64,000 bases of DNA from Bacteroidaceae bacterium (lineage in GTDB: Bacteria > Bacteroidota > Bacteroidia > Bacteroidales > Bacteroidaceae), in NCBI GenBank assembly GCA_017522785.1, contig JAFWYF010000004.1:55480-119479 (forward strand). The letters are read 5' to 3'. Below the pieces are notes generated by a model that saw nothing but the letters and a program-made list of their open reading frames with translations, had not been told where the DNA came from and did not search any database. Shown here one piece after another: positions 16,387 through 17,959 of the stretch. Position 1 is the first letter of the stretch, and the number at the start of each line of letters is the position of its first letter. The translations under genes and the position numbers were made by a program.

Positions 16387-16433
16387 TAACACATAAATGG
16401 GGTTGCTAATTTAGCAACCCCATTTATGTGTTA
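16387..16433 (-). terminator. long stem-loop closing the nine-gene operon
   Basis: ttaacacataaatggggttgcta at tagcaaccccatttatgtgttaa forms a stem of about 23 bp, 27 nt past the stop at 16460. No U tract, so it could be a terminator or an RNA-stability/processing element. Confidence 0.5.
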
Positions 16434-16459: not shown

Positions 16460-17923
16460 TTATTTCCCTAAATATCTCTTTTGTAATTTAGTAGCCTCGC
16501 CCTTTGCTCTCTCAATAATAGGCTTCCACTGATAGTTGCGATATAATCCAACTACAGTACTATAAGTCATAATGATAAATGATACACAGCAAAGCACTAG
16601 AACTGCTATAATAATCAATGCCAACATCCTTGCAAAGATAAGGAAGTTTCCTGCGTCCACCTCTTTATCTTTACGAACTTGTCCATTGCTAAGATAGGTA
16701 GTAACCTCGATATCAGGCAACAATTTAGTTGCAAGAACAGTACCTAATAAAGAGGCAGCAATACCAAATGCTAAATCACGAATAGAGTTAATGAATTTAG
16801 AATCTTCCTCATATTTCACTATAACATAGCCATACTGATAGGATGCAAGAATGTAGAGAGGAGTCATTACTATAGCAAGGAAGAGCAAAAAGTTCACCCA
16901 TACGGTGCCTCCTTTTAGATGTGATACCATATCTTCACACTCCTCTATAGCAGCATCTTGAACATCGTCGAAGTCCATCTCGTTGAAATCTTCATACTTT
17001 TCGAGATACTCTTCGGCCATATCCTCATACTTCTCTTGCGAATCGAGATATTCATCTCTTTTGTCTGAATCGGCCGCTTTTGCAGCAGATTCTGCATAGT
17101 TTTCGGCACTCTCTTTAGCTTCGTAATGTTCACGATATAACATATGCAACATATATATTTTATAGTTGTTGGCATTGTCATATACGTTCGTAAAGAAGCC
17201 ACCATGTGGCGAAGGATACTCGGTCAGAATAGTATCACACTCTTGCCAATCTTCTACCAATGCAAGTCGTTGTTCAGCCTTATCAATAGCACCTTTATTT
17301 TTCATACTATAATAAAATAGTATGATGATTGATAAAAATACACCACCTATTATCATCCACGAGTGTGTCCACTGACGTGTAAGCGACCAACTGACACTGT
17401 TGCGCAACATGTTGATTCGTTCTACTAGAGTAGACTCGTGAGGGGCATCAGCTGCCTTTTCTGCCTTATCCAAAAGTTCATCGACACGCATAGCCTCTTC
17501 GGGCGATTTAATATTAAAGGCAACTCTTTCATCTTTCAATTCGCGCATTGCCAAGCTATAGGCCTCATTTGCATAAGCCCATGCCTCGTTATTAACATTT
17601 TCGCCTTCTGGTTCTTCGGGATAATCCAATGGACGGGCATAGCCTTCTTCGACACTTTTCCAAAGGCGCCACACCATTTTACATTCCAATCCATTGCTAC
17701 GTAGTTTTCGTGCCAATGTAAATGCCTTGAGCCATTTACCGGCCTCAAACACATAAGGCAGATTTCCTTGCAGGTCGCCTATTTGTGTCAGACTGAGACC
17801 AACATCATACTTTAGTATTTCAATTAATTTCTCTTTCGAAACACCGTCGATGTTTGTAAGTTTTATGTAGTACTTTTTGTATCCAAGAAAGTATACCAAC
17901 AGGAATATTAAGAGTTCAAACAT
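16460..17923 (-). CDS. polytopic membrane protein with N-terminal L7/L12-CTD-like module and a very acidic loop (operon gene 9)
   Basis: 487 aa with hydrophobic segments at about 1-15, 187-205, 350-372, 395-413 and 440-470. Residues 19-84 resemble the ribosomal L7/L12 C-terminal domain. The segment DSDKRDEYLDSQEKYEDMAEEYLEKYEDFNEMDFDD is strongly acidic. Confidence 0.8.
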   Translation of the reverse strand: MFELLIFLLVYFLGYKKYYIKLTNIDGVSKEKLIEILKYDVGLSLTQIGDLQGNLPYVFEAGKWLKAFTLARKLRSNGLECKMVWRLWKSVEEGYARPLDYPEEPEGENVNNEAWAYANEAYSLAMRELKDERVAFNIKSPEEAMRVDELLDKAEKAADAPHESTLVERINMLRNSVSWSLTRQWTHSWMIIGGVFLSIIILFYYSMKNKGAIDKAEQRLALVEDWQECDTILTEYPSPHGGFFTNVYDNANNYKIYMLHMLYREHYEAKESAENYAESAAKAADSDKRDEYLDSQEKYEDMAEEYLEKYEDFNEMDFDDVQDAAIEECEDMVSHLKGGTVWVNFLLFLAIVMTPLYILASYQYGYVIVKYEEDSKFINSIRDLAFGIAASLLGTVLATKLLPDIEVTTYLSNGQVRKDKEVDAGNFLIFARMLALIIIAVLVLCCVSFIIMTYSTVVGLYRNYQWKPIIERAKGEATKLQKRYLGK

Positions 17924-17959
17924 AGTTATATCTGTTTAAAGATGAATATTGTGTGTGTT

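What the first reader, a model, noticed from the sequence alone, without database searches (positions are those of the whole stretch)
17672..17869. Ribosomal L7/L12 C-terminal-domain-like module fused to a polytopic membrane protein in a GTPase operon
Seen in sequence: residues 19-84 of the 487-aa protein read YIKLTNIDGVSKEKLIEILKYDVGLSLTQIGDLQGNLPYVFEAGKWLKAFTLARKLRSNGLECKMV. By hand they align without gaps to the E. coli L7/L12 CTD, which I recall as ...[54 protein letters not shown]. Matches are at GL-x-L, DL, P, G and the final L-x-x-x-G-x-E strand. KKYYIK immediately after the N-terminal hydrophobic helix suggests the module faces the cytoplasm.

Established knowledge: the L7/L12 CTD is the ribosomal element that recruits translational GTPases and stimulates them.

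Inference: here the module may dock onto or regulate the operon's tubulin-like GTPase at the membrane. This is a hand alignment of a short domain and could be coincidental.
Basis: inference. Interest (0 to 1): 0.6.

Follow-up and report, generated by a model that had tools for sequence, protein, structure and literature searches.

The report
Membrane-tethered ribosomal-stalk-like domain, operon link incidental
A small domain at the start of this gut-bacterial membrane protein is a diverged copy of the head of ribosomal stalk protein L7/L12, but the protein sits beside the tubulin-like GTPase operon in this species only, so regulation of that GTPase is not supported.

Summary
Residues 18-84 of the 487-aa ORF (16460-17923, minus strand) are a diverged bL12 C-terminal-domain (CTD) module.
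- The single sequence shows nothing: no Pfam hit, and BLASTP against the genome's own rplL gives E=62.
- Profiles of orthologs do match. hhalign gives 87-95% against ribosomal L12 CTDs and 97% (E 5.5e-11) against non-ribosomal PF00542 repeats, with shuffled controls at or below 2.8%.
- All top PDB sequence hits are bL12, and 12 of 22 family modules hit PF00542 on their own.
- The AF2 model (pLDDT 80) has the b-a-a-b-a-b order. Foldseek returns only bL12 CTD and ClpS.
- Charge distribution, and a natural module-less homolog without a signal peptide, place the module in the cytoplasm.

The functional inference is not supported. In the genus, 13 of 90 genomes have Tubulin_2 and 12 of 90 have a homolog of this protein. 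Only two have both (1.7 expected by chance), and one of those two is module-less and on another contig. The closest operon (tubulin 91% identical) has the same eight genes but no such protein. Orthologs are stand-alone genes with no conserved neighbour.

Most likely this is an accessory cytoplasmic docking domain of a lineage-restricted five-TM protein, with an unknown partner. It is a new architectural variant of a known domain, of modest interest.

The parts
16460..17923 (-). 487-aa ORF ('p487'). It is a lineage-restricted five-TM membrane protein with an N-terminal bL12-CTD-like module.
   Evidence: ORF list. There are 14 orthologs at 36-53% identity. No Pfam or NCBIfam family matches. Full-length AF2 gives pLDDT 74.
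17879..17920 (-). TM1 (residues 2-15). It has no basic N-region and is followed by KKYY, so it reads as an N-out signal anchor.
   Evidence: Helix 2-15 in the AF2 model. Across 18 orthologs the 0-5 residues before the helix carry no K or R, and net charge after it is +2.2.
17672..17872 (-). bL12 C-terminal-domain-like module (residues 18-84): b1 18-24, a1 30-41, a2 45-51, b2 57-62, a3 64-76, b3 80-84.
   Evidence: AF2 models, Foldseek, hhalign, hmmsearch against PDB, library-wide hmmsearch, and per-member Pfam scan.
17594..17671 (-). Variable acidic and Pro-rich linker (residues 85-110).
   Evidence: Poorly conserved columns in A1. No regular secondary structure in the model.
17381..17593 (-). 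Conserved cytoplasmic helical domain (residues 111-181). It is retained in module-less homologs.
   Evidence: Invariant N111, W115, S140, D148, D152, E155, R174. Helices 112-125, 141-157 and 164-181. Module-less homologs align from about position 89-100 onwards.
17297..17359 (-). TM2 (residues 189-209).
   Evidence: Hydropathy. Net charge is +2.6 before and +0.4 after the helix.
16898..17296 (-). Acidic helical region (residues 210-342), predicted periplasmic.
   Evidence: 11 K+R against 35 D+E in the window's protein. Family mean net charge is -10.4. Long helices 251-282, 286-314 and 318 onwards, with pLDDT 85-93.
16559..16897 (-). TM3 (343-365), short cytoplasmic loop, TM4 (384-402), periplasmic beta-hairpin (405-421), TM5 (429-455).
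   Evidence: Hydropathy, charge balance of the loops, and the AF2 secondary structure.
16463..16558 (-). Basic cytoplasmic C-terminal helix (residues 456-487).
   Evidence: 8 K+R against 2 D+E. Family mean net charge is +4.4. Helix 466-486.
16387..16433 (-). Perfect 23-bp inverted repeat (TAACACATAAATGGGGTTGCTAA / TTAGCAACCCCATTTATGTGTTA), starting 27 nt after the stop codon. It is a likely transcript end.
   Evidence: Read directly from the sequence. The consensus terminator scan did not list it, because no T-run follows.
17924..17959 (-). 36-nt spacer between the 266-aa exported-protein gene and p487, with no hairpin.
   Evidence: Sequence and terminator scan.

Best explanation
Residues 18-84 are a true but strongly diverged member of the ribosomal L7/L12 C-terminal-domain superfamily. 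In profile terms they are nearer to the non-ribosomal PF00542 repeats seen in large bacterial proteins than to rplL itself.

The module is held at the inner face of the cytoplasmic membrane. TM1 (N-out) anchors one end. A variable linker of about 25 residues joins the other end to the rest of a five-TM protein, which also has a conserved cytoplasmic helical domain and an acidic periplasmic helical region.

The module is an optional accessory: a sister clade of the same membrane protein lacks TM1 and the module entirely.

The most conserved surface positions are on helices a1 and a2 (E31, K35 in most members, K38 invariant, Y39, E40, E47 in most members, K49 in most members). This is the same face that bL12 uses for its partners. 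I infer that the module is a protein-docking head that recruits a soluble cytoplasmic partner to the membrane protein.

That partner is not the tubulin-like GTPase of the neighbouring operon. The gene is a stand-alone, lineage-restricted gene that in this one species has landed at the 3' end of the operon, where it is probably co-transcribed.

Shown: the fold, the homology, the conservation, the distribution and the lack of linkage. Inferred: the topology (strongly), the docking function, and the use of the a1/a2 face.
For: Homology and fold:
- hhalign is 86.9-95.1% against bL12 CTDs and 97.1% against non-ribosomal PF00542 repeats, with controls at or below 2.8%.
- The top 6-8 PDB sequence hits are all bL12, with E down to 0.0012.
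- Library-wide hmmsearch hits include P0020, P0026, P0027 and P0029, each carrying 3-8 Pfam Ribosomal_L12 domains.
- 12 of 22 modules hit PF00542 singly (best E 1.3e-5), and none hits ClpS.
- AF2 gives pLDDT 80.5 with b-a-a-b-a-b order.
- Foldseek TM-scores normalised by the target are 0.70-0.75 to 1ctf, 2zjq_5, 7o9k_FF and 8yeq, with probability 0.97-1.0.

Topology:
- Charge balance across 18 orthologs fits N-out and C-in with the module inside.
- The module-less 419-aa homologs start with an acidic soluble segment. They have no signal peptide, and the upstream frames are closed.

Accessory nature:
- Four of 12 homologs in the genus lack TM1 and the module, and they form one clade.

Independence from the operon:
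- In the genus, p487 homologs occur in 12 of 90 genomes and Tubulin_2 in 13 of 90, with both in only 2.
- tblastn with the eight other operon proteins finds nothing around any ortholog.
- The G457 operon has tubulin 91%, p464 75% and p266 80% identical, and is followed by a 748-aa exported protein instead of p487. The G428, G001 and G415 operons also lack it.
- Across 13 contexts no neighbour is conserved. P0003 and P0002 sit among pfl, blaI/blaR-like and glycosidase genes.
Against: - In this genome the gene is only 36 nt downstream of the operon's last gene, with no terminator in between and a strong hairpin after it. It is probably co-expressed with the tubulin-like system, so a species-specific functional recruitment cannot be excluded.
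- The genomes are MAGs that are 79-98% complete, so some absences could be assembly gaps.
- No partner was identified, so the docking function is inference only.
- The window's own module has lost several of the family's conserved surface charges: K35 is E, E47 is Q and K49 is G.
- The domain arrangement in the full-length model is uncertain (pTM 0.46).
Confidence: 0.72

Rival explanations
1. One reading: the L12-like head docks onto the operon's tubulin-like (Tubulin_2/FtsZl1) GTPase at the membrane and stimulates or regulates it.
For: - The gene is adjacent to the operon and probably co-transcribed with it in this genome: a 36-nt gap, no terminator, and a hairpin after the gene.
- The module is cytoplasmic, like the tubulin-like protein.
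- The rest of the operon is envelope-associated, so a membrane tether would make sense.
Against: - There is no co-occurrence beyond chance in 90 genomes of the genus.
- Seven of eight module-bearing orthologs have no Tubulin_2 in their genome.
- At least four other Tubulin_2 operons, including one 91% identical, lack the gene.
- bL12 acts on TRAFAC-class translational GTPases through EF-G's G' subdomain and EF-Tu helix D (PMC5887453 and own knowledge). These have no counterpart in the tubulin/FtsZ fold.
Confidence: 0.06
2. Stalk mimic: the membrane-tethered head keeps bL12's original activity and captures translational GTPases (EF-G, EF-Tu, IF2, RF3) at the inner membrane. This would either localise translation or titrate factors.
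For: - In the family consensus several bL12 factor-face positions are kept: K65 as R/K, K70 as K (15 of 18), R73 as K (18 of 18), L80 as L/M (18 of 18), E82 as E/Q (17 of 18) and K84 as K (11 of 18).
- The gene is stand-alone, so its partner should be a housekeeping protein.
- Phage bL12-domain proteins embedded in larger proteins, and with domain-less homologs, are a precedent (PMC6375957).
Against: - The hydrophobic centre of the contact patch is altered. V66 becomes E or D in 16 of 18 members and I69 becomes T in 10 of 18. An acidic residue there should repel EF-G's E224 and E228 (PMC5887453).
- The window's own protein keeps only L33 and L45 of the six EF-G contact positions V66-V68, K70, L80 and E82.
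- PF00542 repeats also occur in proteins with lipoprotein or dockerin signals (P0020, P0027). The fold is therefore not tied to GTPase binding.
Confidence: 0.14
3. ClpS-like adaptor: the module uses the shared fold as ClpS does, binding N-degron peptides or a Clp-type unfoldase N-domain.
For: Foldseek lists ClpS structures among the best matches: 1mbu_C at E 0.016, and 9ayo_B with TM-scores 0.71 (query) and 0.75 (target).
Against: - None of 22 modules hits the ClpS Pfam family, while 12 hit Ribosomal_L12.
- All sequence-profile PDB hits are bL12 and none is ClpS.
- ClpS and the bL12 CTD are known to share one fold, so the structural hits are expected either way.
Confidence: 0.03
4. Chance or convergent resemblance: a generic small alpha/beta domain with no evolutionary link to bL12.
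For: The single sequence has no detectable similarity: BLASTP E=62 and no Pfam hit. Foldseek E-values are only about 0.02, as is usual for a 70-residue domain.
Against: - Profile-profile probability is 95-97%, with reversed and shuffled controls at or below 2.8%.
- Library-wide E of 6e-11 to a six-repeat PF00542 protein.
- More distant family members reach PF00542 on their own (best E 1.3e-5).
- The secondary-structure order is identical over the whole domain.
Confidence: 0.03

Closest known systems
Ribosomal protein bL12 (L7/L12) C-terminal domain, Pfam PF00542 (PDB 1ctf, 1dd3, 8yeq)
   Same: - Same b-a-a-b-a-b fold, with TM-score 0.70-0.75 normalised by the target.
- Significant profile similarity over 58-63 columns.
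- Shared GLxL, DL, P, G and LxxxGxE landmarks, and a conserved basic residue at the R73 position.
   Different: - There is no bL12 N-terminal dimerisation/uL10-binding domain and no Ala-rich hinge. The module follows a TM helix instead.
- The window's own sequence gives no Pfam hit at all.
- The hydrophobic V66/I69 patch is replaced by E/T.
- The genome's real rplL is elsewhere, at G000:C14.
Non-ribosomal PF00542 repeat proteins: P0020, P0026 (TIR fusion), P0027 and P0029, plus the giant LRR proteins of the same genus
   Same: These are the nearest relatives in profile space (hhalign 97.1%, E 5.5e-11). They show that the bL12 head is reused as a module outside the ribosome, including in this genus.
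   Different: They carry 3-8 tandem, well-conserved copies that pass Pfam's threshold. Here there is one much more diverged copy, N-terminal and bracketed by a TM helix and a linker.
Phage bL12-domain proteins (Mizuno et al. 2019, PMC6375957)
   Same: A bL12 domain is embedded in larger non-ribosomal proteins. Homologs specifically lack the domain, and genomic contexts vary. The same pattern is seen here.
   Different: The phage domains are 30-40% identical to cellular bL12 and keep the factor-contact residues (PMC6375957). This module is far more diverged, membrane-tethered and chromosomal, with no phage genes nearby.
ClpS (PF02617)
   Same: Same fold class. ClpS structures are among the top Foldseek hits.
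   Different: No sequence-profile signal.
FtsZl1 / Tubulin_2 operons (Makarova and Koonin 2010, PMC2875224)
   Same: The neighbouring 1032-aa protein is a Tubulin_2 member. As that paper describes, its operon holds lineage-specific membrane and exported proteins.
   Different: p487 is not a conserved member of this cassette.

Membership tests
bL12 C-terminal-domain superfamily (PF00542 fold) | Three-stranded sheet with three helices, in the order b-a-a-b-a-b. | tested here: met
   AF2 on the domain alone gives E3-9, H15-26, H30-36, E42-47, H49-61, E65-70. The full-length model shows the same elements.
bL12 C-terminal-domain superfamily (PF00542 fold) | Superposes on solved bL12 CTD structures. 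| tested here: met
   Foldseek against PDB: 1ctf TMt 0.71, 2zjq_5 0.72, 7o9k_FF 0.73 and 8yeq 0.75, with rmsd 2.2-3.1 A and probability 0.97-1.0.
bL12 C-terminal-domain superfamily (PF00542 fold) | Significant sequence-profile similarity to the family. | tested here: met
   hhalign 86.9%, 95.1% and 97.1%, with controls at or below 2.8%. Library-wide hits to PF00542 repeat proteins. 12 of 22 members hit PF00542 singly.
bL12 C-terminal-domain superfamily (PF00542 fold) | The window's own sequence passes Pfam's gathering score (25.9 bits). | tested here: not met
   No PF00542 hit, even at E up to 10, for the window's module. A PF00542 scan of the genome finds only rplL.
Functional ribosomal stalk protein bL12 | N-terminal dimerisation/uL10-binding domain plus a flexible hinge before the CTD. 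| tested here: not met
   The module is preceded only by a 15-residue TM helix. Ribosomal_L12_N matched 1 of 22 members, at E 0.18 only.
Functional ribosomal stalk protein bL12 | Conserved EF-G/EF-Tu contact residues (V66-V68, K70, L80, E82; PMC5887453). | tested here: not met
   The window has E31, K32, L33, E35, L45 and Q47. The family consensus has E, E, L, K, L, E. The hydrophobic V66 position is acidic in 16 of 18 members.
ClpS adaptor family (PF02617) | Sequence-profile match to ClpS. | tested here: not met
   0 of 22 modules match, and no ClpS appears among PDB profile hits. Only the fold is shared.
Conserved component of the Tubulin_2 (FtsZl1) envelope operon | Co-occurrence and co-location with Tubulin_2 in related genomes. 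| tested here: not met
   Both are present in 2 of 90 genomes of the genus, against 1.7 expected. The operons of G457, G428, G001 and G415 lack it. No operon genes lie near any ortholog.
Conserved component of the Tubulin_2 (FtsZl1) envelope operon | Physical interaction with the tubulin-like GTPase. | not testable with these tools
   Needs a pull-down, a two-hybrid assay or a complex prediction. Only single-chain prediction was available.

The most novel reading that the evidence does not exclude
A gut Bacteroidaceae lineage has anchored a copy of the ribosomal stalk head to the inner membrane. There it captures translational GTPases, or another housekeeping partner, under control of a periplasm-facing helical sensor region. 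That would be a transmembrane switch acting on translation factors. In this one species it would have been wired into the expression of a tubulin-like envelope system.
Probability: 0.1. Interest if true: 0.7.

Novelty: new variant of a known kind. Interest (0 to 1): 0.35.

Why it matters
- **What is new.** The bL12 head domain has been reused, in a form too diverged for Pfam, as a membrane-tethered cytoplasmic module of an uncharacterised five-TM protein family. This adds a new architecture to the growing set of non-ribosomal bL12-CTD proteins: phage proteins, TIR fusions, and giant LRR or surface proteins.
- **What it corrects.** This gene should not be counted as part of the conserved Tubulin_2/FtsZl1 envelope cassette, and its L12-like head should not be used to argue for a GTPase-activating partner of bacterial tubulin-like proteins.
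- **A test case.** The natural pair of module-bearing and module-less homologs could be used to ask what the module adds.

Tried and rejected
- Single-sequence searches gave nothing useful. Pfam and NCBIfam had no relevant hit. phmmer of residues 1-120 against PDB gave only spurious lytic-transglycosylase hits at E about 1.3. BLASTP against the genome's own bL12 gave E=62.
- PADLOC found no defence-system match for p487.
- Foldseek of the full-length model gave no confident match for the membrane body. Chemoreceptor, exportin and pore-toxin hits had probability at or below 0.21.
- An order-level scan of 401 genomes found the family only in the window's own genome. I therefore went to genus level.
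- Contigs of the distant homologs P0023 and P0019 were too short upstream to show their context.
- I looked for a conserved neighbour. BlaI/BlaR-like genes flank two metagenomic orthologs, but an all-against-all comparison of 13 contexts found none shared.
- The ClpS reading was rejected on sequence profiles.
- A tree to decide whether the module was gained or lost is not decisive. The module-less proteins form one clade among three deep branches.
- The first literature search was too broad and gave nothing. A search for PF00542 in the literature found nothing relevant.
Full report
**What is at the coordinates.** The window holds a run of co-directional minus-strand genes from 27472 to 16460. 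The run is headed by a 3-TM protein and a 1032-aa protein with Tubulin_2 (PF13809, E 2.6e-45) and GYF_2 domains. A zinc-ribbon/TM protein and five exported proteins follow. The last gene, 16460-17923, encodes 487 aa. The gene starts 36 nt after the stop of the 266-aa exported protein, and no hairpin lies between them. A perfect 23-bp inverted repeat (16387-16433) follows it.

**Is the L7/L12 resemblance real?**

The single sequence shows nothing:
- Pfam and NCBIfam give no relevant hit.
- phmmer against PDB gives noise.
- BLASTP against the genome's own bL12 gives E=62.
- A PF00542 scan of the whole genome finds only rplL, on another contig.

The protein has 14 orthologs at 36-53% identity, and the N-terminal module is conserved in them. 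At profile level the picture changes:
- A profile of residues 16-95 from 14 orthologs aligns to bL12 CTDs with hhalign probability 86.9% (E 4e-6, 58 columns).
- With 22 modules the probability is 95.1% (E 3e-8) over 63 columns, which is the whole domain.
- Against 19 non-ribosomal PF00542 repeats it is 97.1% (E 5.5e-11). Reversed templates give 0.3-0.4%, and 30 column-shuffled templates give at most 2.8%.
- hmmsearch of the module profile against all PDB sequences puts bL12 entries in every top position, with E 0.015 falling to 0.0012 with the larger alignment.
- The same profile was searched against 1.84 billion representative proteins. Apart from orthologs, it found four proteins that Pfam shows to carry 3-8 bona fide Ribosomal_L12 domains: P0020 (E 6.4e-11), P0026, P0027 and P0029.
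- Scanned one by one, 12 of 22 family modules hit PF00542 (best E 1.3e-5) and none hits ClpS.

**Fold.**
- AlphaFold2 on residues 16-95 with the ortholog alignment gives pLDDT 80.5 and pTM 0.64. The element order is b1-a1-a2-b2-a3-b3, as in the bL12 CTD.
- The same elements appear in the full-length model.
- The top 35 Foldseek hits against PDB are all bL12 CTD or ClpS, with probability 0.77-1.0. These two families are known to share this fold. TM-scores normalised by the target are 0.70-0.75 for 1ctf, 2zjq_5, 7o9k_FF and 8yeq.
- In the full-length search these are again the only confident hits. The membrane body matches nothing.

**Topology.**
- Hydropathy gives five TM segments: 2-15, 189-209, 343-365, 384-402 and 429-455.
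- Mean net charges across 18 orthologs are +2.2 after TM1, +2.6 before TM2, +0.4 after TM2, -2.5 before TM3, +1.6 in loop 3, -1.4 in loop 4 and +4.4 in the C-tail.
- By the positive-inside rule (established knowledge), this gives N-out and C-in. The module and the helical domain 111-181 are cytoplasmic, and the acidic helical region 210-342 is periplasmic.
- Independent support comes from four genomes of the genus. They encode a 419-aa homolog that starts at the equivalent of about residue 90-100. Its first residues form an acidic soluble segment, it has no signal peptide, and the upstream frames are closed. Its N-terminal region must therefore be cytoplasmic.

- In 401 genomes sampled across the order, the family occurs only in the window's own genome.
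- In the 90 genomes of the genus, 12 have a homolog: 8 with the module and 4 without.
- Tubulin_2 is present in 13 of the 90.
- Both are present in only two genomes, against 1.7 expected by chance. One is the window's genome. The other is G428, where the homolog is the module-less form on a different contig.
- None of the other seven module-bearing genomes has Tubulin_2.
- The closest operon is G457:C17, with tubulin 91%, p332 92%, p266 80% and p464 75% identical. It contains all eight genes from the 3-TM protein to the 266-aa protein. A 748-aa exported protein then follows, not a p487 homolog.
- The operons in G428, G001 and G415 also lack it.
- tblastn with the eight operon proteins finds nothing near any ortholog.
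- The nearest orthologs are flanked by unrelated genes. P0003 (50% identity) has pflA and blaI/blaR-like genes next to it. P0002 (53%) has a divergent blaI/M56 cluster and a GH20 gene. Others follow sdhCAB or an exported protein.
- An all-against-all comparison of 13 contexts finds no shared neighbour.

So p487 is a stand-alone gene that sits at the end of the operon in this species only.

**The factor-binding face.** PMC5887453 summarises the bL12 residues that contact EF-G's G' subdomain as V66-V68, K70, L80 and E82.
- In the register given by hhalign and hmmsearch, the window's protein has E31, K32, L33, E35, L45 and Q47 at these positions.
- The family consensus has E, E, L, K, L and E.
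- Other basic positions are kept: R73 is K38 in 18 of 18 members, K65 is mostly R, and K84 is K in 11 of 18.
- The hydrophobic V66/I69 centre is E/T.
- The a1/a2 face is the best-conserved surface, so it is probably still a binding face, but with changed specificity.
- PF00542 repeats also occur in proteins with a lipoprotein-type or dockerin-bearing N-terminus (P0020, P0027). The fold is therefore not tied to GTPases.

**Most likely mechanism.** The module is an accessory cytoplasmic docking head, anchored by TM1 on one side and joined by a flexible linker on the other. It recruits a soluble partner to a five-TM protein whose periplasmic helical region may sense or bind something outside.
- The accessory nature is shown by the module-less clade.
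- A tree of the body region cannot say whether the module was gained or lost.
- The partner is unknown. A translational GTPase is the most interesting candidate, but the altered contact patch weakens it. The tubulin-like GTPase is unlikely on distribution grounds.

**Comparison with what is known.**
- The module belongs to the bL12-CTD superfamily by fold and by profile similarity. It is not a ribosomal stalk protein, because it has no N-terminal domain or hinge, and the real rplL is elsewhere in the genome.
- The pattern matches what Mizuno et al. described for phage bL12-domain proteins (PMC6375957): one domain embedded in a larger protein, homologs that lack it, and variable genomic context.
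- Earlier notes of this scan list other non-ribosomal bL12-head proteins in unrelated genomes. I used these as context only.
- Makarova and Koonin (PMC2875224) noted that FtsZl1 operons carry lineage-specific membrane proteins. This gene is not a conserved one of them.

**Limits.**
- The genomes are MAGs of 79-98% completeness.
- No interaction could be tested.

Noticed in passing
L038 3-13736 (G011:C97, same genus); also G001:C23 near 99915-100106: Giant ORFs of about 4,870 and 4,970 aa. The G011 ORF, scanned with Pfam, has leucine-rich repeats and 3-4 bona fide Ribosomal_L12 CTD repeats at its extreme C-terminus. The G001 ORF has one PF00542 match in the genome scan and was not scanned further. 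This shows non-ribosomal reuse of the stalk head in the same genus.
   Followed up: partly
P0026 (402 aa, metagenomic; found by the module profile): A TIR domain is fused to three Ribosomal_L12 CTD repeats. The TIR part resembles ThsB/SAVED-TIR models in PADLOC. It may be a defence-type protein that uses bL12 heads as sensor or targeting modules.
   Followed up: partly
P0020 (803 aa) and P0027 (965 aa): Six or seven L12-CTD repeats lie behind a lipoprotein-like signal (P0020), or behind a signal peptide with dockerin and Ig/SprB domains (P0027). These repeats are apparently extracellular, where no GTPase partner exists.
   Followed up: no
L040 7397-19140 (G457:C17): This is the closest relative of the window's Tubulin_2 operon, with the tubulin-like protein 91% identical. 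It keeps the same eight genes but is followed by a 748-aa exported protein. Synteny with the window breaks exactly at the operon's 3' end.
   Followed up: partly
window 16387-16433: A perfect 23-bp inverted repeat with an almost absent loop lies right after the p487 stop codon. About 360 nt of AT-rich spacer follow, up to the ROK-kinase gene.
   Followed up: no
L032 11754-13862 and L035 6734-9736: BlaI-like (Penicillinase_R) and BlaR-like (Peptidase_M56) genes lie next to the two closest metagenomic orthologs of p487. They are not found near the other orthologs.
   Followed up: partly
L028 13722-14981, L029 13409-14668, L037 585-1844: A 419-aa paralogous form of the membrane protein lacks TM1 and the L12-like module. 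It is present in four genomes of the genus and nearly identical among them.
   Followed up: yes
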